UHGV virus genome: UHGV-0828925
Reading direction: 5' to 3' (one strand)
DNA from: a virus
DNA: 34,506 bases
In this document: positions 12,227 through 21,286 of the stretch, piece by piece
How the letters are laid out: every line of letters begins with the position of its first letter
Numbering within the stretch: the stretch's first letter is position 1
Made by a program: the position numbers and the translations under genes
The notes under the pieces: generated by a model
Database searches by the model: none
Seen by the model: only the letters and a program-made list of their open reading frames with translations
What the model was told of the DNA's origin: nothing

Positions 12227-13612
12227 ATGGCTACGTGGCAACAGGGTATTAATTCTGGTGGTTTTCTGGCTGGCATTGGTACGCAAAATGAGAATGCACC
12301 AAAGGCAAGCGACATTAACGCAACGCTTGGTCTGATTCGCGAAAACAATGAACTGGCTCGCTCAGGTACAAATAACGTTGGTCTGACCGCGTTACGTGGT
12401 CTGGCTGGAGTTGCTGATATTTACAATCAGGAACAGCAACAGAAAGCGATTAGTGCGTTCAATAAGGTTCATGCTGATGCATGGGCTTCTGGTGATCCAT
12501 CGGGACTATTTAAGTTTGCCCAGGAAAATCCAGCGTTTGTTGCACAGGCACAACAGGCGTTTTCAGGTCTTAATGATCAGCAACGCAACGATATGGGCGA
12601 TTTAGCCATGAGGGCTAACGTCGCTCTTTCTCAGGGACCGGAAGCCTACAGTAAATTCATTACTGACAACAAGGACAGGTTAAATCGCGTGGGGGCGAAT
12701 GCTGACTGGATGATTCAGACAGGTATCCAGAATCCAGAGCAGCTATCACACATGCTGACTACTATGTCTCTCGGTGCGCTTGGACCAGAAAAGGCGTTTG
12801 CTGTTCAGGACAAGATGGCTGGTCGTGAAATTGACCGAGGCAGACTGGCAGAGACAATCCGCAGCAATCAGGCTGGAGAAGCACTTCAGGCGAGAGGGCA
12901 AAACCTTTCCTATCAGTCAGCAATGACTGGACACGGACTTGCAGCAGAAAGACTGGCACTTGATAAGCAGAAATTCGGTTTTGAAGTACAACAGGCACAA
13001 AAGAAGGCCGATGAACTTATTAATGCTGCGCCAAAACTATCCGTGAACATGGAAAAGGCTATAGAAAAATCAGCAGGTGATGCGGCAGCTAGTCGTAATG
13101 CTGCCGATTCAATGACAACGCTTGCTGACACGCTTGAGAAGGAGAAGCCAACTCCTGGTTTGTTCGGTAACGCTGAAAATATGTTCACTAAGCTTACGGG
13201 GCAAGATAACTACCTCCGAGATATGCGGATTAGATTCAACCAACTAGCCAATGCGCAGGCAACCAAGCTTCTCCCTCCCGGCCCTGCATCAGATAAGGAT
13301 ATTGAGTTTGCAAGGAAAGGCATTCCAAGCGAAACGGATAATCCAATGGTCATGGCTCGATGGTTAAGGGGTATGGCAAAAATGGAAAGTAATAACGCGA
13401 AGTTCAACGAGTTTAGGTCAGAGTGGATGAGTGCAAATGGCAGCCCAGGACAATCTGATCGCAACCGAAACATCATGGGGATGGATGTTAAGAAGGGTGA
13501 ATCATTGAACTCTGCGGCAAAACGTTTTCTTTCCTCAAGTTATGGCGATAGCCAACCTCAACAGCAATTGTCCGATGACGAATTAATTAGCAAATATCTC
13601 GGAGGGCAGTAA
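12227..13612 (+). CDS. gp20: Ejection protein gp20-like
   Basis: 461 aa; conserved position between gp7 and gp16. Confidence 0.85.
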
Positions 13613-15438
13613 TGGCCTATAGTCGTGAACAGTTGATGACGGCGTTAAGGAATGCTGATGCTGCCGGCGATACTGAGGGAGCACGTCGCATTGCTCAGAT
13701 GCTGTCTTCTGGTGATCAATCCACTCAAAACCAATCGCAGCCAGAAGAACAATCTCTGGTGGGAAAAGCTACTGACTGGCTCACTGGTGGTCAAAGTGCA
13801 GGGCAAATTGCAGAACAGGCTGGTCGTGGTCTGGTAAACATACCATTTGACGTATTACAGGGCGGCGCAAGTCTGATTAATGCAATCAGTCAGGGGCTTG
13901 GTGGCCCCAAGGTTTTGGATGATGTTTATCGTCCAGTAGACAGACCGACAGACCCCTACGCTCAAGCTGGAGAAACAATTGGCGGGTATTTAGTTCCAGG
14001 AGTTGGAACGGCAGGAAGCATGGCTATTGGATCACTGGCAGAGGCCGCAAATCAGAAAGGTGATTTCGCACAAAATGCAGCTAAAAATGCCGGAGTTAAC
14101 CTTGCCGCTCAGGGTGTTCTTTCCGCAGCAGCAAAGGGAATAGGGCGTGGAATAACGGCTATAAAAGGTGATATTGCGCCAGAAGTGGCAAAGAAAATTG
14201 CCACATCAGAATCGATGGGCGTGACACCAATGACATCTGATGTTATCCCGCCGAAAAATGCTTTCACTCGCGGACTTACTCAGGATGCTGAGGGGGCTTT
14301 GCTCGGGACAGGCTCAAAGCGAGCGGAGCAATATGCAACGCGTAGTAAGCTGGTAAGCAATTATTTTGACCGTTTTGGTGAGTACAACCCTGATGATGTG
14401 GTGAAATCTCTGACCACCACGTTAAGGGGACGGAAGGATGCCGCTGGCGCTGTTATCAATGACGTCACCAATAAAATGGGTAATGCCGCAGTTGATACCA
14501 CAAATACCATGAATGCTCTGAATACAGCGATCGCAAGACAGGAACGGCTTGGGACTTCTGCCAATCAAAGCCTGCTTACATCCTTGCGTAACCTACGTGA
14601 AGAATTAGCAAACCCTGCAACTGATTTGGATGTTACGTTTGATCTCTTGCGCCAGCACAGAACAGCATTTAGATCTAATGTTCAGGGAGATGCCATGGTC
14701 TTCCCCAACCAGGCAAAAGCAGCTACCAATATGGTAGAGAATGCAATGTCAAAAGACCTTCGTAACGCAGTTGCTAAAAACCTCGGTGCTTCAGACGCAG
14801 CAAAATACCTTAAAGCAAATTCCGATTATGCAAACGTTTATAATAAGGTGCTTAATAAAAACATTGCTAACAAGCTCAACAAGGCAAGCAGTGAAGCCAG
14901 TCCTGAACTTATAAATACTGTTGTATTAAGCAGAAAACCATCTGACGTGAAACGAATCTGGAGCGCATTGGATGATAAAGGGAAAGATGCTATGCGTGCA
15001 GCTTACGTCAGCAAAATAGCGGAAAAGGCCGGTGACTCTCCAGCCAAGTTCATCACGGAAGTTAATAAGCTGAAATCTCAGTCAGGCGGTGAAATTTACA
15101 ACGCTATTTTTTCTGGAAAGCACATGAAAGAACTTGATGCTCTTCATGAAGTTCTACAGCAAACAGCAAGATCAGACACCGCAAATGTAGTAACTCAGAC
15201 GGGGCAATCGCAAGCCAACAGGATAAGGACGATTGGCGCAACTACGACTCTTGGCGTATCAATGGGGCTTGAGGCTGGTTTCGGTGCAATGATGCGCTTG
15301 TATGAATCCAAAGCAGCAAGGAATGCGCTCTTACGTCTGGCAAACACTAAAGCTGGAACGCCAGCTTATGAAAGAGCGCTAAATCAGGCGGCTACTGCCG
15401 TGCGCCCGCTCTTAGTTAACGAAGCTACCCGGCAGTAG
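13612..15438 (+). CDS. gp16: Ejection protein gp16-like
   Basis: 608 aa; last gene of the late operon as in P22. Confidence 0.85.
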
Positions 15439-15460
15439 CACTGTAAGCCAAGGACGGCAT

Positions 15461-15955
15461 TTATTTTATAGTTTTTATGAATTCTTTATTAAATCCCTTC
15501 GCTTCTCCGGGGTATCTTCCGAAGACAATTTTTATAAAAACAGAAAAAATAAAGATAGCAACGCTTAACAACAATTGCAGTATCATTGGAACCCAAAGAA
15601 CTACAGGCTCTATATTCATGAAACCAAATATTCTTCCGGCGATCATGGCGAAGTACCACACTGTTATCAGCAAACTTAGTGGCATATGAATTACTGATAT
15701 TACCAATCCAAGAGCATCAGTAATTCTGTTTTCAAATTTTTCAGGGGAAAACTTTTCTTTAAGGTAATTCAGTGCGCAGGCCTCATTCTCTGGATTTTCA
15801 GCATTTTTCCCTATAGCAATAGAAATCTCAGATATCCTTGATTCAATTCTTTTACGTTTAATAAAACTAGAAAAAAAGAACCACGCAATCTGCAACCCTA
15901 TCCCCAGAAATAGAGTTGCGGCAACTAGCACAGCGTAACTCATAGAATCAGACAC
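15461..15955 (-). CDS. Multi-pass inner-membrane protein, putative superinfection exclusion protein (SieA-like by position)
   Basis: 164 aa with an N-terminal TM helix and 2-3 C-terminal TM helices; AT-rich codon usage; sits between gp16 and mnt where P22 carries sieA. Function inferred from position only. Confidence 0.6.
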
Positions 15956-16037
15956 ACCAACCTCCTTAGTTTTACGCAGGATACCATGATGTCAGTGCAA
16001 GGGGGAGAAAGTCTCCTCATTATCTGATTCGCAATTT

Positions 16038-16073
16038 ACGTGCATATTTAAATATTGCACGTTACAACGTGCA
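16038..16073. promoter_or_regulatory. Overlapping palindromes in the divergent intergenic region (candidate operator/promoter)
   Basis: TGCATATTTAAATATTGCA (near-palindrome) overlapping TGCACGTT-AC-AACGTGCA (8-bp inverted repeat), between the divergent membrane-protein gene and the 16109 gene. Confidence 0.5.
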
Positions 16074-16108
16074 TGTGTATGATTGACTTATCAATCACAA
16101 CACGAGAT

Positions 16109-17122
16109 ATGCTCATGAAAAATGATGATGTTAGTGGGAAGGCCAAAGGCGGTAAGGCACGCGCGGCAAAAATGACAGCAGAGCAAAGAAAAGAATCCTC
16201 AAGAAAGGCTGTTGCCGCAAAAAAAGAAAAAGCTTTATTGCCCGTATCTGCGAATGAGGGAAAGTTAAAGATCGGTGATGCGGAATTAGATGTCGCGGTT
16301 CTCGAAAATGGACGGCGTATCATATCACAAGCTTCTGTTTTTAAAGCATTTGGCCGACCACAAAGAGGGGGTAGAGCACCTCAAGAAGAGGGGGTGATCA
16401 ATATGCCCGCTTTTATGGATGCTGCAAACCTTAAAAAATATATAAATCAAGATGTTATGGATGTGATCAATAAGGTCAAATACAAGACGATTACTGGCTC
16501 CGTCCAGGAAGGTTATGACGCATCCATAATACCTCTTGTCTGCGATGTTTATTTAAAGGCAAGAGAGGCAGGCGCTATCACCAGGCCAAACCAGTTAGAG
16601 ACAGCCAAGAAAGCTGAAATTCTGGTGCGCTCATTAGCTAAAGTCGGAATAATAGCGCTTGTTGATGAAGCGACGGGGTACCAGCGAGATAGAGAAAAAG
16701 ATGCACTCGCCAAAATACTCGAGGCCTTTGTCGCAAAGGAAATTCAACCTTATATTACAACATTTCCTGCTGATTATTATGAAGAGCTTTTCAGGTTAAG
16801 GGGCTTAGAATACCCGCCGGAAAATCCCCGCTTCCGGCCTCAGTATTTTGGCGTTTTGACAAATGATATCGTCTACAAGAGATTGGCACCAAACATCCTT
16901 GAGGAGCTTAAAAAGCAGAACGTAAAGGCCTCAAAAGGTACAAAGTTGTTTCAGGGGCTGACGCCAAATATTGGATATCAAAAATTAAGAGAGCATCTGT
17001 CATCAACCGTTACGATTATGAAGCTATCTAACGACTATTCAGATTTTATTGCAAAAATGAATCGCCTGCATCCAAGGTTTGAGGATGTGAAAACAGACGA
17101 ACTGGATGATTCAGACAAGTAA
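16109..17122 (+). CDS. Hypothetical protein with highly basic Lys/Ala-rich N-terminal tail (accessory gene)
   Basis: About 337 aa; N-terminal 60 residues K/A/R-rich (GKAKGGKARAAKMTAEQRKESSRKAVAAKKEK); AT-rich; start ambiguous between the ATGs at 16109 and 16115. Confidence 0.7.
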   Translation: MLMKNDDVSGKAKGGKARAAKMTAEQRKESSRKAVAAKKEKALLPVSANEGKLKIGDAELDVAVLENGRRIISQASVFKAFGRPQRGGRAPQEEGVINMPAFMDAANLKKYINQDVMDVINKVKYKTITGSVQEGYDASIIPLVCDVYLKAREAGAITRPNQLETAKKAEILVRSLAKVGIIALVDEATGYQRDREKDALAKILEAFVAKEIQPYITTFPADYYEELFRLRGLEYPPENPRFRPQYFGVLTNDIVYKRLAPNILEELKKQNVKASKGTKLFQGLTPNIGYQKLREHLSSTVTIMKLSNDYSDFIAKMNRLHPRFEDVKTDELDDSDK

Positions 17123-17126
17123 CAGT

Positions 17127-17150
17127 AACCCACCTTCAGGTGGGTTTTTT
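17127..17150 (+). terminator. Rho-independent terminator between convergent genes
   Basis: AACCCACC-TTCA-GGTGGGTT followed by TTTT; overlaps the mnt stop codon on the opposite strand. Confidence 0.7.
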
Positions 17151-17387
17151 GTACAAATCCTTCAGCGTATCAAACACCATCTTCTTAACAAGCTCTGACT
17201 GCTCATCAGCGAGTCGTTCTGCATCGTCGCGATAGCCTGCAATCGGTGATGGTTTTGATAGCGCATCCTGAACGATTTGTAATAACTCTGAGTTCATTGA
17301 CCTTCCGTTAGCCTCTGCTCTTAATTTCAATTTTTCTCTTACTTCCAAAGGCATACGGAAGTTAAAGTGCGGATCGTCTCTAGCCAT
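17136..17387 (-). CDS. mnt: Mnt repressor (ribbon-helix-helix)
   Basis: 83 aa MARDDPHFNFRMPLEVREKLKLRAEANGRSMNSELLQIVQDAL..., near-identical to my recollection of P22 Mnt. Confidence 0.9.
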   Translation of the reverse strand: MARDDPHFNFRMPLEVREKLKLRAEANGRSMNSELLQIVQDALSKPSPIAGYRDDAERLADEQSELVKKMVFDTLKDLYKKPT

Positions 17388-17410
17388 GCCATCACTCCAA
17401 GTTAGTATCT

Positions 17411-17674
17411 CTAACTTTCGTCTTTATTGTTGCTATACATGCATTTCAACTTCTCAACATCATGTTCAAGATCTATCAATCGTGATGCTATAGTTGCAAG
17501 GTCTAGTGCTTGAATGTGTTTATTTTTTTCGGTCCATGCTTCAAGTGCCGCGACCATCTCAGCATTTAATGAACGAGAATTAGCCTCAGCCAGTTCAATA
17601 AGACGTTCCTTTATCTCTACAGGAAGCCTCAGATTCACTTGAGGGTTTTTGTACTTACGATCAGACATCGGCAC
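17411..17674 (-). CDS. Second ribbon-helix-helix (Arc/Mnt-family) DNA-binding protein
   Basis: 87 aa; N-terminal NLRLPVEIKERLIELAEANSRSLNAEMVAALE matches the RHH beta-strand/helix pattern; upstream of and co-oriented with mnt. Confidence 0.75.
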   Translation of the reverse strand: MPMSDRKYKNPQVNLRLPVEIKERLIELAEANSRSLNAEMVAALEAWTEKNKHIQALDLATIASRLIDLEHDVEKLKCMYSNNKDES

Positions 17675-17704
17675 ATCCTGAATAATTTTTTACCACAGGA
17701 TATG

Positions 17705-17743
17705 TAGGTATCTATTGACTATCAATGCGTACCTAAATACTAT
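17705..17743 (+). promoter_or_regulatory. Rightward Pant-like promoter with overlapping inverted repeat (candidate Arc/Mnt operator)
   Basis: -35 TTGACT (17715..17720), 17-bp spacer, -10 TACTAT (17738..17743); TAGGTA...TACCTA inverted repeat spans the -35. Confidence 0.55.
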
Positions 17744-17773
17744 GTATGCGTACCACATACAACGGAGGATGCA

Positions 17774-17914
17774 ATGAAGGTAAAAACACTGCGTATGCCA
17801 GAGAAGTTAGAAAAAATCCTTGAAGAGAAAGCAAAGGAAGAGTGTCGCTCATTTAGTGCAGAAGTAATTAAACGGGTGATGGACAGCCTGAAGAGAGAGG
17901 GGATAACGGTATGA
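17774..17914 (+). CDS. arc: Arc-like ribbon-helix-helix repressor
   Basis: 46 aa MKVKTLRMPEKLEKILEEKAKEECRSFSAEVIKRVMDSLKREGITV; GGAGG SD 5 nt upstream; same architecture as P22 Arc; stop overlaps next ATG (ATGA). Below the 60-aa track threshold, found by reading. Confidence 0.7.
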   Translation: MKVKTLRMPEKLEKILEEKAKEECRSFSAEVIKRVMDSLKREGITV

Positions 17915-18114
17915 GTAAAGAATGTTGTTTCTGCGGCATTAGCGAATCAGACGCTGATCAAACATACATTTACTCTAAAGAAACAGGTCGGATGCTGTGT
18001 AGTGACTGCGTGTTGGACATCATAAGATACAAGCATCTTGGATGTTCTGCCAGCATTAGCAATATAGGTGAAGTATATGAAGGGAAAGATATAACTGATA
18101 GAGCAGAAAGTTGA
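17911..18114 (+). CDS. Small Cys-rich protein (possible zinc ribbon)
   Basis: 67 aa with CCFC...CSDC spacing (two Cys pairs); translationally coupled to arc. Confidence 0.5.
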   Translation: MSKECCFCGISESDADQTYIYSKETGRMLCSDCVLDIIRYKHLGCSASISNIGEVYEGKDITDRAES

Positions 18115-18176
18115 AGCCCCAACTGCGGTAACAGTCAGGACTTCGGTATCAACAAATCGGATTAGGAAATATTGAC

Positions 18177-19055
18177 ATGAAAAGTATAGCAAAGGCACAA
18201 AACGATTTCACCATCTTCAAATTCGGCGACAGTGAAATCCGCGTCATCAACAAATGCGGTGAGCCGTGGTTTGTAGCAAAAGATGTTTGTGATGCTTTAA
18301 CCCTGACTAACTCACGCAAGGCGCTTACTGCACTTGATGACGATGAAAAGGGAGTAACTTTAAGTTACACCCTTGGTGGTGAGCAGAATCTAAGCATTGT
18401 TAGCGAATCAGGTATGTATACATTGGTTCTGCGCTGCCGCGATGCTGTCAATAAAGGTTCGGTCCCGCACAAATTCCGCAAGTGGGTAACAGCAGAAGTT
18501 CTACCTTCAATTCGCAAACATGGCGAGTATGTGAAAGGCAAGAAAACCACTGTTGAGGAAAGAACGCCGCTACGCGATGCAGTAAACATGCTGGTAGGAA
18601 AGAAAGGACTTCGCTATGACGATGCATACAATATGGTTCATCAGCGTTTTGGTATTGACAGCATTGATGAACTTTCAATTGAACAAATCCCGCAAGCCGT
18701 AGAGTACATCCACAGGGTAGTGCTTGAAGGCGAATTCATCGGCAAACAAGAGAAGAAAACCGACGAGCTTTCTGCAAAAGAAGCAAACAGCCTTGTATGG
18801 TTATGGGATTATGCCAATCGTTCACAGGCATTATTCCGCGAACTGTATCCGGCATTAAAACAAATTCAATCGAACTATTCCGGCAGATGCTACGACTATG
18901 GTCATGAATTCTCGTATGTTATCGGAATGGCGAGAGACGTTTTAATCAATCACACACGAGATGTTGATATCAATGAGCCAGACGGACCAACGAATCTTTC
19001 CGCATGGATGAGACTTAAGAATAAAGAATTACCTCCTTCAGTACATAACTACTGA
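18177..19055 (+). CDS. ant: Antirepressor with Bro-N-type N-terminal domain
   Basis: 292 aa; N-terminal [30 protein letters not shown]... resembles the Bro-N domain; occupies the ant position after arc. Confidence 0.75.
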
Positions 19056-19074
19056 CAGATAACCAACGCAACGA

Positions 19075-19098
19075 CCCAGCTTCGGCTGGGTTTTTTAT
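19075..19098 (+). terminator. Rho-independent terminator after ant
   Basis: ACCCAGC-TTCG-GCTGGGT followed by TTTTTT. Confidence 0.8.
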
Positions 19099-19108
19099 GC
19101 CCAAAATT

Positions 19109-19229
19109 CACCGTAGCCACACTTAGGCAATGAGCTTGAAGGAGAGACCTACACAAAAAGTGTAGGTCGAAAAGCGAACAAAATAACTTCCGAAAAAGTT
19201 GTTTTATCACAAAAAACTCACCGTAGCCA
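19109..19229 (+). repeat. Direct repeats TCACCGTAGCCA flanking a hairpin upstream of the tailspike gene
   Basis: AAA(T/C)TCACCGTAGCCA at 19105..19120 and 19213..19229; hairpin ACCTACAC-AAAAA-GTGTAGGT at 19147..19167 between them. Confidence 0.55.
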
Positions 19230-19264
19230 TGCTGCGGCGATTCCTTGTATCTGGAGCAAATTAA

Positions 19265-21286
19265 ATGACAGATTCGATAAATGCCAATGTTGTAGTGAGT
19301 ATGCCTTCGCAACTCTTCACTATGGCGCGTTCTTTTAAAGCCGTAGCCAATGGCAAAATTTATATCGGTAAGATTGACACAGATCCGGTAAATCCAGAAA
19401 ACCAGATTCAGGTTTATGTGGAGAATGAAGACGGTTCTCACGTTCCTGTTTCGCAACCAATCATCATTAATGCTGCTGGATATCCGGTATATAACGGACA
19501 GATTGCCAAGTTCGTAACTGTGCAAGGTCATTCTATGGCTGTGTACGATGCGTATGGGGCGCGGCAGTTCTATTTTCCGAATGTGCTTAAGTATGATCCT
19601 GATCAGTTAAAAAACATTTTACTATCAAAATCTGGAGCATCAAATGTTTTCACGTCTTCTGGTGATAGCGTTCAAACATTTATAGATAACTATGCATTTA
19701 TTTATGCTGTTGATTATTTGCCTGAAAATTACGTTACAGACGGTTCTGTAGACTATCGCGCAGAAATACAAGAAGCAATCAATCATGCAACGAGCATAAA
19801 ATCAGCATTGGTTTTACCTCCATTTCAGTGCAAGATAACTCCGGTAGATCAGTTTGATGTTCCAGGTCTCCTAATCCCATCTAATTCAATAATTATAAAC
19901 CCACCAGGAGGATCGCTTAAGATTGGTGAAAATAGCTTTGAGCAATACGGGGTTATGACATTTTCAGATGTTGAAAATATAATTGTTATAAACCCAGTAT
20001 GCATTGGAGATAAAACAACTCACAAAGGACTGGACGGCGAGTTCGGAATGTGTTTCTTTATCAGGGGTGGGTGTAACAATATAGAAATAAAAAACCCTAA
20101 AGCCATTGATGCATGGGGAGATGGAATTTTTATTGGTCAGCACTGGCCTGATAAGGTCTCATACCCGAAGAAAATAACTATAACCAGACCAGTTACAGAA
20201 AACTGCCGTAGGCAAGGTATTAGCATTACATGTGGAGAGTCCATAGTCATCGATAGGCCAGAATTGAACAACACTGGTGATAGCGATTCAACACCCCTCC
20301 CAAACGGCCCATGGGCTGGAATCGACATAGAACCTAACTATTTTCAGACGCCGTTAAGGGGAATTCACGTCAATGGAGTTATAGGAAAGGGTAATAAAGG
20401 GCCGCTAACTCAAATCGCGCTAAATATGGCAGATACAAACATCCCACCAGAAGGTGGTAGATATGACTGCCAAATCACCATTGACGGGGTTTCTGATGAC
20501 TCATCAAGAGGAGCGTTTGAGTTTTGGGGGGTTCCTAACAGAGATTCTCTTTTTAACGGATACGTTTCAGTTAAGAACGTGTGCTCCAAGGGAGCGCTAA
20601 AAAACCCTATAATGATAAACAACCAATTCTACAAGTCAGGCTTGCGCCTACTAGTAGACAACGTATCAATAAATGATTGGTCTTGCTCATATTCAAGCAA
20701 CATTGATAAGGCCCCTATAGCCATTAAAACATCTGATTCATCACAATATCCATCATCAACACTTCCAGTACAGGGGAACTTTGAAATAAGAGATGTGTCT
20801 CTTAGCTCATCTCTTCCAGCTGAAAGCATATCAAAATATGCAATCGTAACAAACAATGCAAAAGGGTTTGTAGGTGCATATATATCGTTCAAGCATGTAA
20901 TATGTCCAGTAAAGCTAACCACTAACGTTTTTGGTAGGATTAATCTTGATCTAGGTTCATTTTACCAGACTCTAACATGTACAATGAATCCAGGTGAAAC
21001 TTTAAACCTTGCTTCATTATCTGATATTAAGATGAGCGAGCCTGGAGAGATCTCCCTTCCATCATCAATTGATAGCAGATTCAATGGTCAACAATATAGA
21101 TTAATGTATGACTCATCGTCTGGATTTATGAAGATGAATACATCTAGCCTTAACGTATTCGTAAACGGTAAAGCGGTTACTGCCGGATATGCTAATTTTT
21201 ATCCATCAGCAGGTGTAATATCAATAACTGTTGGTGTTAATGGGTTTGTTCTTATAAACACTCAGGGAGGATATACGCCATCATGA
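19265..21286 (+). CDS. gp9: Tailspike protein with P22-type head-binding N-domain and divergent receptor-binding domain
   Basis: 673 aa; first ~110 aa ([14 protein letters not shown]...[25 protein letters not shown]...[15 protein letters not shown]...NVLKYDPDQ) match the P22 gp9 head-binding domain as I recall it; the rest is AT-rich and unlike P22. Confidence 0.85.

What the first reader, a model, noticed from the sequence alone, without database searches (positions are those of the whole stretch)
15461..17150. AT-rich divergent accessory cassette between gp16 and mnt: membrane protein plus a protein with a histone-like basic tail
The stretch between the last ejection gene and mnt is markedly more AT-rich than the backbone. 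It holds a 164-aa multi-pass membrane protein (minus strand) and, divergently, a roughly 337-aa protein whose first 60 residues are almost pure Lys/Ala/Arg. Overlapping TGCA-centred palindromes lie in the shared promoter region and a terminator closes the cassette. P22 carries sieA in this hotspot, but the partner gene here is not something I can assign to a characterised family. This is the best candidate in the window for an uncharacterised exclusion or defence function.
Basis: partly seen in the sequence, partly recalled or inferred. Interest (0 to 1): 0.65.

Follow-up and report, generated by a model that had tools for sequence, protein, structure and literature searches.

The report
SieA gene plus self-regulating P63C moron
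The flagged stretch is not one new defence system: it holds the already characterised phage-exclusion gene sieA and, beside it, an independent mobile one-gene cassette of unknown function whose basic "tail" most likely binds repeated sites in its own promoter.

Summary
The region is AT-rich (GC 0.405 against 0.497 in the structural genes). It holds a 164-aa membrane protein, a divergent 335/337-aa protein with a basic N-terminus, clustered ACGTGCA palindromes and a terminator.

The membrane protein is SieA type A, 93% identical to P22 SieA, which is a characterised DNA-injection blocker.

The partner gene belongs to Pfam P63C (PF10546), a very large family of unknown function. It is not coupled to sieA. 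The 1.2-kb cassette (15966-17169) is 99.4% identical to gene L0095 in the nin region of Stx phage 933W. The same sieA-mnt slot carries ORF59a, another P63C allele or a Panacea toxin-antitoxin pair in related prophages.

The palindromes are a diverged copy of a family-wide array of 10-bp sites (ATGCWWGCAT). These sites are about 240-fold enriched upstream of homologues across bacterial phyla and overlap the promoter. They are absent where the basic tail is missing or replaced by an HTH. One tail residue tracks the site variant in all 42 classifiable loci.

My reading is that the tail is a sequence-specific autorepressor module. The function of the core stays unknown, with no fold, PADLOC or NCBIfam match. 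A defence role is possible but unsupported. In other phyla the gene rides inside IS1-type insertion sequences.

The parts
15461..15955 (-). sieA (type A superinfection exclusion protein, 164 aa, GTG start)
   Evidence: phrog_7745 full length, E 7e-109. 151/163 residues identical to P22 SieA. Hydrophobic segments at about 5-32, 78-113 and 112-150, and motif [13 protein letters not shown] at residues 145-157. The function is taken from PMC10883804.
15966..15991 (-). Conserved left junction of the cargo slot. It contains TGgTATCCT on the minus strand, a candidate extended -10 of the sieA promoter (inferred).
   Evidence: TTAGTTTTnnGCAGrATACCA is shared by the window, P22, three E. coli prophages and 933W. 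P22, elppa4 and VTB96816v homology ends at 15989-15991. The promoter assignment is inference from the sequence.
15966..17169 (+). Mobile P63C cassette as shared with Stx phages: promoter/operator region, gene, terminator, and the last 34 bp (11 codons plus stop) of mnt.
   Evidence: 1204 bp at 99.4-99.5% identity to 933W, BP-4795, Lahn1 and Nil3. The core 15990-17126 is present in 49 of 5426 complete E. coli genomes, always at 99% identity or more.
16036..16045 (.). Operator-like site 1 (TTACGTGCAT)
   Evidence: The same architecture is seen in relatives L006, L007, L008, L037, L051 and L092.
16054..16063 (.). Operator-like site 2 (ATTGCACGTT). It contains the predicted -35 TTGCAC at 16055-16060.
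   Evidence: The -35 is inferred: 17-nt spacing to TATGAT, 8 of 12 consensus matches, which is below the threshold of the scan.
16065..16074 (.). Operator-like site 3 (CAACGTGCAT), in the promoter spacer directly before the predicted -10
16078..16083 (+). Predicted -10 (TATGAT) of the P63C gene promoter
   Evidence: Inference from the sequence and from the family-wide pattern in which -10-like hexamers abut a site.
16080..16097 (.). Second palindrome TGATTGA-N4-TCAATCA over the predicted -10 and transcription start; role unknown
   Evidence: The adjacent block ATCACAACACGAGA is conserved in Enterobacterales relatives.
16115..17122 (+). P63C-family protein gene (335 aa from ATG 16115; alternative starts at 16109, 16073 and 16055)
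   Evidence: PF10546 at E 1e-23 and phrog_2384 at E 2e-146. 6759 or more homologues, and 3107 representatives at 50% identity. 335-aa forms dominate public records.
16136..16234 (+). N-terminal basic helix hairpin (residues 10-42 of the 337-aa form: GKAKGGKARAAKMTAEQRKESSRKAVAAKKEKA), the proposed sequence-specific DNA-binding module
   Evidence: Conserved motif. Predicted helices at 11-20 and 24-42. Residue 30 covaries with site class. The tail is replaced by HTH_3 or absent in homologues that lack the sites.
16658..16693 (+). Family signature LVDEATGYQRDR (L184-R195 of the 337-aa form)
   Evidence: The signature residues (L184, D186, E187, T189, G190, Q192, R195) are each conserved in 90-98% of 121 diverse representatives and invariant among 36 closer homologues. 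The signature is replaced in the 28%-identical elppa4 allele.
16715..16987 (+). Pfam P63C domain proper
   Evidence: hmmscan match to residues 221-311 of the 355-aa translation.
17127..17152 (+). Intrinsic terminator (AACCCACC-TTCA-GGTGGGTT plus T-run). It is part of the conserved right junction and overlaps the last codons of mnt on the other strand.
   Evidence: P22 homology resumes at 17126.
17136..17387 (-). mnt (right boundary of the slot; context)
   Evidence: PF03869 Arc plus PF11423 Repressor_Mnt.

Best explanation
The region holds two adjacent but independent prophage accessory units in the known gene16-to-mnt cargo slot of a P22-like Escherichia phage.

Unit 1 is sieA (type A). [quoted passage not shown]

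Unit 2 is a self-contained 1.16-1.2-kb moron that encodes a P63C-family protein. Its basic N-terminal helix hairpin is a sequence-specific DNA-binding module. It recognises the three ACGTGCA(T) sites that cover the -35 and the spacer of the gene's own promoter, so the protein represses its own synthesis. This makes a portable expression unit that works in any host. The unit ends at the terminator shared with mnt.

The cassette moves horizontally as a block. The 933W nin-region copy still carries the sieA-side junction and 34 bp of mnt, so it came from a P22-like slot.

The roughly 290-residue core (a beta-rich domain plus a helical domain with the signature LxDExTGxQxxR) performs the actual function, which is unknown. 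My leading guess, at about 35%, is a lysogen-expressed function in conflicts between mobile elements (defence or exclusion) that acts on a universal substrate such as nucleic acid.

Shown: the identity of sieA; the independence and mobility of the cassette; the site array and its dependence on the tail. Inferred: binding of the sites by the tail, autorepression, promoter positions, expression in the lysogen, and the effector role.
For: sieA: full-length phrog_7745 match, 93% identity to P22 SieA, and the conserved motif. Experimental function comes from PMC10883804.

Independence and mobility:
- Homology break-points lie at 15989-15991 and 17126-17127. The slot holds ORF59a in P22, a Panacea antitoxin pair in VTB96816v, and a 28%-identical P63C allele in elppa4.
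- The same cassette sits beside a different gene in EC11.
- Identity to the 933W nin region is 99.4%.
- 49 of 5426 E. coli genomes carry it, all at 99% or more.
- A Pfam census of 150 flanking genes shows no conserved partner apart from an IS1-type transposase.

Site array:
- Three ACGTGCA half-sites lie within 36 bp, and only one other occurs in the whole window.
- Homologues in 78 loci from many phyla carry 108 matches to ATGC(AA/TT)GCAT in 10.1 kb of upstream sequence, against 27 in 602 kb elsewhere, a 238-fold enrichment.
- Spacings are fixed, and the -35 and -10 elements sit inside or against the sites.

The tail as the reader of the sites:
- Residue 30 is Ile or Val in 30 of 30 loci with TGCAAGCA-type sites, and Ser, Ala or Asn in 12 of 12 loci with CG-centred sites. 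The window has Ser.
- Site class switches about 7 times on a core-domain tree.
- The two P63C alleles found in the same E. coli slot each carry the matching site type.
- Homologues with an HTH_3 in place of the tail (L086, L087) or with no tail (L100, L102/L103, L104) have no such sites. Two of the tail-less genes sit 16-17 bp behind an upstream co-oriented gene.

Lysogen or accessory context: a tail-less homologue lies directly after a CI/LexA-like repressor gene next to ParE. Other homologues are morons inside tail clusters of Pseudomonas and Morganella prophages.
Against: - There is no experimental evidence for DNA binding, autorepression or expression.
- The proposed promoter matches the consensus at only 8 of 12 positions, and the scan did not call it.
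- The covariation could partly reflect physical linkage, because the sites and the tail codons lie within about 200 bp and may be exchanged as one block.
- Only five distinct loci with tail-less or HTH-bearing variants were examined.
- The tail is modelled with low confidence (pLDDT 57-71).
- For the guessed effector role there is no PADLOC or NCBIfam hit and no fold match in the PDB.
- Some homologues sit in early or lytic operons (L102 after YqaJ; the nin region in 933W).
- The DE signature is absent from the distant elppa4 allele.
- Conservation of 43-50% identity across phyla is unusual for a protein in an arms race.
Confidence: 0.6

Rival explanations
1. One reading: sieA and the divergent gene form one two-gene exclusion or defence cassette, controlled from a shared palindromic promoter region.
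For: The two genes are adjacent and divergent, with 153-159 bp between them. Both lie in an AT-rich accessory slot.
Against: sieA occurs with ORF59a, with a Panacea pair or with a different P63C allele. The P63C cassette occurs without sieA in 933W, EC11, Pseudomonas, Morganella and IS elements. P22 sieA alone, with 85 bp of upstream sequence, is sufficient for exclusion (PMC10883804). The palindromes lie about 55 bp beyond the likely sieA -10 and travel with the P63C gene, not with sieA.
Confidence: 0.04
2. The P63C protein is mainly a regulator of the Bro/Ant (antirepressor or transcription factor) kind. On this model an N-terminal DNA-binding region plus a helical partner domain modulates lysis-lysogeny decisions, other prophages or host genes, rather than defending against phages.
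Against: No Bro-N or KilA-N HMM hit at E up to 10. hhalign against this window's own Bro-N protein gives probability 0.1. No other cluster of the operator motif exists in the window. Tail-less homologues keep the core, so the core's role does not need the tail's DNA binding. Adjacency to ant modules may only reflect shared insertion hotspots, since L088 and L090 have the gene without them.
Confidence: 0.2
3. The P63C protein serves mobility itself, as an accessory or regulatory factor of IS1/IS1595-type transposition or another selfish-spread function. On this model the phage copies are stranded passengers.
For: 19 of 80 loci have a divergent IS1-type DDE transposase about 200 bp upstream, with the site array between the two genes. 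Complete 2.1-2.4-kb elements with GGTAGTG terminal repeats and 8-bp target duplications enclose both genes. Some homologues fuse an IS1595-type zinc ribbon to the core. The cassette is nearly identical in unrelated phage contexts.
Against: There is no transposase or terminal repeat around the window or 933W copies. Most loci (61 of 80) lack a transposase. The junctions in P22-like phages are fixed recombination points shared with unrelated cargo. There is no recognisable nuclease or recombinase fold.
Confidence: 0.1
4. The basic tail is a non-specific, histone-like nucleic-acid binder, and the palindromes are operators for another protein such as Mnt, Arc or a host factor.
For: The tail has high Lys/Arg/Ala content. 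The immI repressors Mnt and Arc are encoded next door.
Against: The sites accompany the gene into 933W, which lacks immI at that locus, and into IS elements and chromosomes of Actinobacteria, Chloroflexi, Planctomycetes and others, where no common host factor or Mnt is expected. The sites disappear when the tail is absent or replaced. Residue 30 tracks the central bases of the site. From memory, the P22 Mnt and Arc operators have unrelated sequences.
Confidence: 0.05

Closest known systems
P22 SieA (type A superinfection exclusion protein; Leavitt et al. 2024, PMC10883804)
   Same: Same length (164 aa), 93% identical, same position after gene 16 on the minus strand, same FxRYPxEAxxFNK motif, and a similar hydrophobic profile.
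   Different: 12 substitutions. It sits in an Escherichia P22-like phage rather than a Salmonella one. Its upstream region beyond about 34 bp is replaced by the P63C cassette.
933W gene L0095 / NP_049495.1 and its copies in BP-4795, Lahn1, Nil3 and other Stx phages ('P63C domain-containing protein', function unknown)
   Same: 99.4-99.5% nucleotide identity over 1204 bp, including the promoter sites, the gene and the terminator.
   Different: Different location: the nin region between a DNA methyltransferase gene and roi in lambdoid Stx phages, against the sieA-mnt slot of a P22-like phage here. The Stx copies carry remnants of the P22-type junctions.
Pfam PF10546 P63C (named after Myxococcus phage Mx8 p63)
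   Same: HMM match well above the gathering score (84 bits against 26.1). Mx8 p63 is also recovered by fold search.
   Different: The Pfam model covers only about 93 residues. The conserved unit here is about 290 residues plus an optional N-terminal module. No function is attached to the family.
Phage morons and lysogen-expressed exclusion genes (lambda rexAB behind cI, HK97 gp15, P22 sieB) - a 'works like' comparison only
   Same: An autonomous promoter-gene-terminator unit, present or absent between conserved neighbours, lower in GC than the backbone. One tail-less homologue lies directly behind a CI-like repressor gene, as rexAB does.
   Different: No exclusion phenotype is known, and there is no sequence or fold relationship to any of them.
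Autoregulated single-gene or toxin-antitoxin-type modules with an exchangeable N-terminal DNA-binding domain (for example HTH-fused Abi/TA proteins)
   Same: The N-terminal DNA-binding module is exchangeable for an XRE HTH. Operators overlap the gene's own promoter.
   Different: There is no partner gene, no known toxin fold, and toxicity has not been tested.
IS1/IS1595-family insertion sequences with passenger genes (ISfinder describes such subgroups; recalled from memory, not verified here)
   Same: In relatives the P63C gene is enclosed with an IS1-type DDE transposase by terminal inverted repeats and 8-bp target duplications.
   Different: The window copy has no transposase or terminal repeats. 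It sits in a phage recombination slot.

Membership tests
SieA type A (P22-like phage superinfection exclusion protein) | High sequence identity to P22 SieA over the full length | tested here: met
   151/163 identical, E 1e-113. phrog_7745 match 1-164 of 164.
SieA type A (P22-like phage superinfection exclusion protein) | Multi-pass inner-membrane protein with the cytoplasmic motif FxRYPxEAxxFNK near residues 145-157 | tested here: met
   Hydropathy segments at 5-32, 78-113 and 112-150. [13 protein letters not shown] at 145-157. The motif is as described in PMC10883804. Membrane localisation itself was not tested.
SieA type A (P22-like phage superinfection exclusion protein) | Located in a P22-like (pro)phage between the homologues of genes 16 and 9 | tested here: met
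   Gene 16 homologue at 13612-15438; mnt, arc and ant follow. The window is P22-like.
SieA type A (P22-like phage superinfection exclusion protein) | Blocks DNA injection by P22-like phages | not testable with these tools
   Needs plating and potassium-efflux or DNA-entry assays.
Pfam P63C (PF10546) | HMM score above the curated gathering threshold | tested here: met
   84.2 bits against a cut-off of 26.1, covering profile positions 1-93 of 93.
Phage moron (autonomous accessory gene unit) | Present or absent between conserved flanking genes in related phages | tested here: met
   The slot at 15991-17126 carries different cargo in P22, elppa4 and VTB96816v.
Phage moron (autonomous accessory gene unit) | Own promoter and terminator | tested here: inconclusive
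   The terminator is clear. The promoter (TTGCAC-17-TATGAT) is only 8 of 12 and is inferred from the family architecture. No transcript data.
Phage moron (autonomous accessory gene unit) | Base composition different from the backbone | tested here: met
   GC 0.428 for the gene and 0.405 for the region, against 0.497.
Bro-N / KilA-N DNA-binding domain proteins (antirepressor-like) | Recognisable Bro-N or KilA-N domain by profile | tested here: not met
   No Pfam hit for residues 44-211 (337-aa numbering) at E up to 10. hhalign probability 0.1 against the window's Ant Bro-N domain. Only sub-threshold fold hints.
Known or candidate anti-phage defence systems (PADLOC-DB v2) | Significant match to any defence protein model | tested here: not met
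   Best hits E 0.006-0.014, inconsistent across 36 family members.
Type II toxin-antitoxin module | Conserved two-gene operon of a toxin and a cognate antitoxin | tested here: not met
   No conserved neighbour among 150 flanking genes except a transposase. The window gene is monocistronic between sieA and mnt.
IS1/IS1595-family insertion sequence carrying a passenger gene | DDE transposase plus terminal inverted repeats and target-site duplication around the gene | tested here: not met
   Absent in the window. Met in relatives: L035 by terminal repeats only; L036, L039 and L085 with both repeats and target duplications.

The most novel reading that the evidence does not exclude
P63C cassettes may be a previously unrecognised class of single-gene, self-regulating mobile modules found across bacterial phyla and carried by temperate phages and IS1-type insertion sequences. 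On this reading the N-terminal 'GGxARAxxLTxExRxx(I/S)AxKAAxxR' hairpin is a new sequence-specific DNA-binding motif that reads a 10-bp ATGCWWGCAT operator built into a portable promoter. The structurally unmatched core would be a new kind of effector in conflicts between mobile elements (anti-phage defence or exclusion).
Probability: 0.2. Interest if true: 0.8.

Novelty: new member of a known kind. Interest (0 to 1): 0.5.

Why it matters
For this window the result is mostly clarifying. The 'best defence candidate' splits into a characterised exclusion gene (sieA) and a copy of a gene that has sat unannotated in Stx phage 933W since its first sequencing.

The wider value lies in the P63C family. 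It has thousands of members in phages, insertion sequences and chromosomes of most bacterial phyla, and no known function.

This analysis gives the family its first concrete and cheaply testable features:
- a conserved operator array embedded in a portable promoter;
- an N-terminal hairpin that appears to read that array, with a single specificity residue;
- modular replacement of the hairpin by an HTH, or its loss when the gene sits in someone else's operon.

The analysis also documents a fixed-junction cargo slot in P22-like prophages that exchanges modules with Stx phages. That is relevant to how accessory genes move among E. coli pathogens.

Tried and rejected
- **Sequence search against the PDB**, with the single protein and with a 36-sequence profile: nothing better than E 0.4.
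- **PADLOC and NCBIfam** on the protein, and PADLOC on 36 homologues: no credible hit.
- **Pfam at E up to 10** on the tail alone, on the part of the protein between the tail and the Pfam domain (residues 44-211), and on a small tail-bearing protein: nothing.
- **hhalign against the window's Bro-N protein**: probability 0.1. The Bro-N assignment was rejected as a membership claim.
- **A Walker-B or ABC-like reading of LVDEATGYQ**: considered and rejected, because there is no P-loop and the segment is predicted helical.
- **A search for a conserved partner gene**, by clustering about 2200 flanking ORFs and by a Pfam census of 150 neighbours: only the IS1-type transposase recurs.
- **Literature**: searches for 'P63C domain', L0095, ISNwi1, IS1595 passenger genes and the CpGV Orf22 structure gave nothing functional. 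The 2002 paper that defined the domain could not be retrieved.
- **Rfam scan of 15000-19500**: only sar RNA, outside the finding.
Full report
**1. What is there**

The window is a P22-like Escherichia phage or prophage. The closest records are Escherichia phages APC_JM3.2 and HZ41 at 95-96%; P22 itself is about 83% over the virion genes. After the gene 16 homologue (13612-15438) come these features:

- a 164-aa minus-strand ORF at 15461-15955;
- a plus-strand ORF ending at 17122;
- an intrinsic terminator at 17127-17146;
- the immI genes: mnt, a second Arc-like gene, arc, a 67-aa ORF, sar RNA and ant.

GC is 0.405 for 15461-17150 against 0.497 for the structural genes, which puts the region in the lowest 5.5% of same-size windows. 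sieA contributes most of this at 0.356. The description of the N-terminus as 'almost pure Lys/Ala/Arg' is overstated: K+A+R is 43% of the first 60 residues and 64% of residues 10-42.

**2. The membrane protein is SieA**

- It matches phrog_7745 ('superinfection exclusion SieA-like') end to end at E 7e-109.
- It is 151/163 identical to P22 SieA.
- It has three to four hydrophobic segments.
- It carries [13 protein letters not shown] at residues 145-157. This is the FxRYPxEAxxFNK motif that Leavitt et al. describe for all SieA types (PMC10883804).

That paper shows that P22 SieA alone, with 85 bp of upstream DNA, is necessary and sufficient to block DNA injection by P22-like phages. It acts against the gp16/gp20 ejection-protein conduit. 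This half of the finding is a known, characterised exclusion gene.

**3. The partner gene is a P63C-family gene**

It matches Pfam PF10546 (84 bits; cut-off 26.1) and phrog_2384 ('unknown function') over its full length. The most likely start is ATG 16115, giving 335 aa. That is the dominant form in public records, and GAGA lies 7 nt upstream.

The family is very large. More than 6700 sequences matched in the word-indexed search, and 3107 representatives at 50% identity matched in the exhaustive search. Full-length homologues at 43-70% identity occur in Proteobacteria, Actinobacteria, Chloroflexi, Acidobacteria, Planctomycetes, Gemmatimonadetes and Chlamydiae. I found no functional literature.

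**4. The two genes are not a pair, and the second is a mobile block**

Pairwise BLAST places the break-points:

[quoted passage not shown] It resumes at 17126-17127, at the terminator and mnt.
- Between those fixed junctions P22 has ORF59a. E. coli VTB96816v has a Panacea-domain antitoxin gene plus a 139-aa ORF. E. coli elppa4 has a P63C allele only 28% identical to this one. E. coli EC11 has this same cassette beside a different 109-aa gene in place of sieA.
- Window 15966-17169 is 99.4-99.5% identical to a segment of Stx phages 933W, BP-4795, Lahn1, Nil3 and others. There it lies in the nin region between a DNA methyltransferase gene and roi.
- The Stx copy overlaps the P22-type junctions on both sides. 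It carries 24 bp of the sieA-upstream junction and the terminator with the last 34 bp of mnt. This indicates that it derives from a P22-like slot.
- The core of the cassette is present in only 49 of 5426 complete E. coli genomes, always at 99% identity or more.

**5. The palindromes belong to a family-wide operator array**

In the window, ACGTGCA occurs four times in 34.5 kb, and three of those lie within 16038-16073.

Among 78 homologous loci, the 7-mer ATGCTTG/CAAGCAT occurs upstream of the gene in 54. Matches to ATGCAAGCAT or ATGCTTGCAT, allowing one mismatch, number 108 in 10.1 kb of upstream sequence against 27 in the remaining 602 kb. That is a 238-fold difference in density. The 27 other matches are scattered singles.

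The sites come in threes or fours with fixed spacings. One layout has sites about 20-21 bp and then 30-31 bp apart. The other has gaps of 18, 10 and 17 bp. In the first layout:

- TTGCAT of the second site serves as a -35;
- a TATAAT-like hexamer abuts the third site;
- the spacing between the two is 16-17 nt.

Enterobacterales relatives, plus a Janthinobacterium and a Geobacteraceae genome, share the window's variant: ACGTGCA-N10/11-TGCACGT-N3/4-ACGTGCA followed by TATGAT-like sequence. For the window I therefore infer:

- a -35 TTGCAC at 16055-16060, inside site 2;
- site 3 in the spacer;
- a -10 TATGAT at 16078-16083.

This promoter matches the consensus at only 8 of 12 positions, and the generic scan did not call it.

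**6. The basic tail is the likely reader of the sites**

The tail is a conserved motif, (K/R)GGxARAxx(L/M)(T/S)xExRxxxAxKAAxx(R/K), predicted as two helices at residues 11-20 and 24-42. Four observations tie it to the sites.

- *Covariation.* Among 42 loci whose site class could be called, position 30 is Ile or Val in 30 of 30 loci with AA/TT-centred sites. It is Ser, Ala or Asn in 12 of 12 loci with CG-centred sites. The window has Ser30 and CG-centred sites. Site class changes about seven times on a tree of the core domain.
- *Same slot, two alleles.* The two P63C alleles found in the same E. coli prophage slot each carry the matching pair of tail type and site type.
- *Loss with the tail.* Homologues in which an XRE-type HTH replaces the tail (L086, L087) lack the sites and show other repeats instead. 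Homologues with no tail (L100/L101, L102/L103, L104) also lack the sites. Two of these lie 16-17 bp behind a co-oriented upstream gene, so they probably use that gene's promoter.
- *Same motif elsewhere.* In IS-type loci a small convergent 75-100-aa protein carries the same motif, of the Ile type, at its C-terminus.

Caveats: the sites and the tail codons are physically close and could be co-inherited as one block; the number of tail-less and HTH-bearing loci examined is small; and nothing has been tested biochemically.

**7. The core remains unassigned**

The AlphaFold2 model has mean pLDDT 75. It shows a beta-rich domain at about 46-137 and a helical domain at about 140-320.

Across 121 diverse representatives, the residues conserved at 90% or more cluster in L184-x-D186-E187-x-T189-G190-x-Q192-x-x-R195. 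R70, R229 and Y256 are also conserved at that level. The DE pair is replaced in the 28%-identical elppa4 allele.

Search results for the core:

- Foldseek against the PDB gives nothing.
- BFVD returns Mx8 p63 and a run of individually insignificant Bro, KilA and antirepressor hits.
- Profile tests for Bro-N fail.
- There is no PADLOC or NCBIfam match for the protein or for its homologues.

**8. Contexts elsewhere**

- The gene is a solo unit. A Pfam census of 150 flanking genes gives 80 different families, mostly singletons that include housekeeping genes.
- The one recurrent neighbour is a divergent IS1-type DDE transposase, in 19 of 80 loci.
- In L035, L036, L039 and L085, terminal inverted repeats enclose the transposase and P63C genes in 2.1-2.4-kb elements. 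In L036, L039 and L085 the repeats begin GGTAGTG and are flanked by 8-bp target duplications. There the gene is a true IS passenger.
- In Pseudomonas aeruginosa and Morganella prophages it is inserted inside tail-gene clusters, several times next to Arc plus antirepressor modules.
- In a Chromobacterium prophage it lies between the recombination genes and the immunity region.
- One tail-less form follows a CI/LexA-like repressor gene and sits next to ParE. Another lies in an early operon after YqaJ.

**9. Mechanism and rivals**

Best-supported reading: sieA acts alone as in P22. The neighbouring cassette is a portable, negatively autoregulated moron in which the tail binds the three sites over the -35 and spacer. 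The core carries an unknown function that does not depend on host-specific partners.

My rough split for the core's role is:

- about 35% a function in conflicts between mobile elements, such as defence or exclusion;
- about 25% a Bro/Ant-like regulator;
- about 15% a mobility-related or selfish function;
- the remainder something else.

The two-gene model and the 'histone-like tail with a foreign operator' model are contradicted by the distribution data.

**10. Novelty**

The sequences themselves are not new: sieA is characterised, and the cassette is already in GenBank in 933W. The window therefore holds a new member of known kinds.

As far as I could find, three things are not described. 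They apply to the whole family rather than to this window:

- the family-wide operator array embedded in a portable promoter;
- the tail-operator specificity link;
- carriage of the gene inside IS1-type elements.

Noticed in passing
window 18109-18175 (-): sar antisense RNA (Rfam RF00262, 68.5 bits, E 3e-13). It lies between a 67-aa Cys-rich ORF (17911-18114, phrog_7150) and ant.
   Followed up: no
window 17136-17387 (-) and 17411-17674 (-): Two tandem Mnt/Arc-type ribbon-helix-helix genes on the minus strand, where P22 has only mnt. There is also a short 46-aa Arc-like gene at 17774-17914 (+). E. coli VTB96816v shows the same three Arc-family genes.
   Followed up: partly
window 15966-15991 and 17126-17169; L001 4001-4026 and 5161-5204: The 933W nin-region copy of the cassette keeps the sieA-upstream junction, including a TGnTATCCT extended -10-like element that points away from the gene. 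It also keeps the last 11 codons of mnt. These look like footprints of an origin in a P22-like immI slot.
   Followed up: partly
L035 2981-5313; L036 2978-5338; L039 2942-5066; L085 3017-5232: Complete 2.1-2.4-kb IS1-type insertion sequences that carry a P63C gene as passenger. All four have terminal inverted repeats (GGTAGTG... in L036, L039 and L085; GGTGGTG... in L035). 8-bp target duplications (GCCGGACA, AGCGCGCC, CGGCATTT) were seen in L036, L039 and L085. The operator array lies between the divergent transposase and P63C genes.
   Followed up: partly
L035 4975-5265 (-), L043 4981-5214 (-), L071 4987-5376 (-) and about 14 more loci: Small convergent ORFs (75-100 aa) immediately downstream of the P63C gene in IS-type loci. 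They end in the same basic motif (KGGKARAxxLTxExRxEIAKKAAxxRW) that forms the N-terminal tail of P63C proteins. No Pfam match.
   Followed up: partly
L100/L101 2319-3876: A tail-less P63C gene lies 17 bp downstream of, and co-oriented with, an HTH_3 plus Peptidase_S24 (CI/LexA-like) repressor gene. A ParE toxin gene follows. The arrangement is reminiscent of rexAB behind cI in lambda.
   Followed up: no
L005 4054-4921: In E. coli VTB96816v the same sieA-mnt slot holds a Panacea-domain (SocA-like antitoxin) gene followed by a 139-aa ORF with no Pfam match, which is a candidate toxin. Other E. coli prophages list a lipoprotein or a ClpP-like gene in this region.
   Followed up: partly
window 16080-16097 and 16094-16107: A separate palindrome, TGATTGA-N4-TCAATCA, lies over the predicted -10 and transcription start. 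A 5'-UTR block ATCACAACACGAGA is conserved in Enterobacterales relatives (L006, L051, L092). The role of both is unknown.
   Followed up: no
proteins P0264, P0222 (homologues, not in the window): The P63C core is fused to an N-terminal IS1595-type transposase zinc ribbon. This is a third kind of N-terminal module, besides the basic tail and the XRE HTH.
   Followed up: no
L089 5393-7038, L091 5577-7038, L092 6001-8390, L001 4108-6031: P63C cassettes lie next to Arc plus P22_AR_N antirepressor modules in Pseudomonas and Morganella prophages, and next to roi in 933W, as they lie next to immI here. This could be a shared insertion hotspot or a functional link; unresolved.
   Followed up: no
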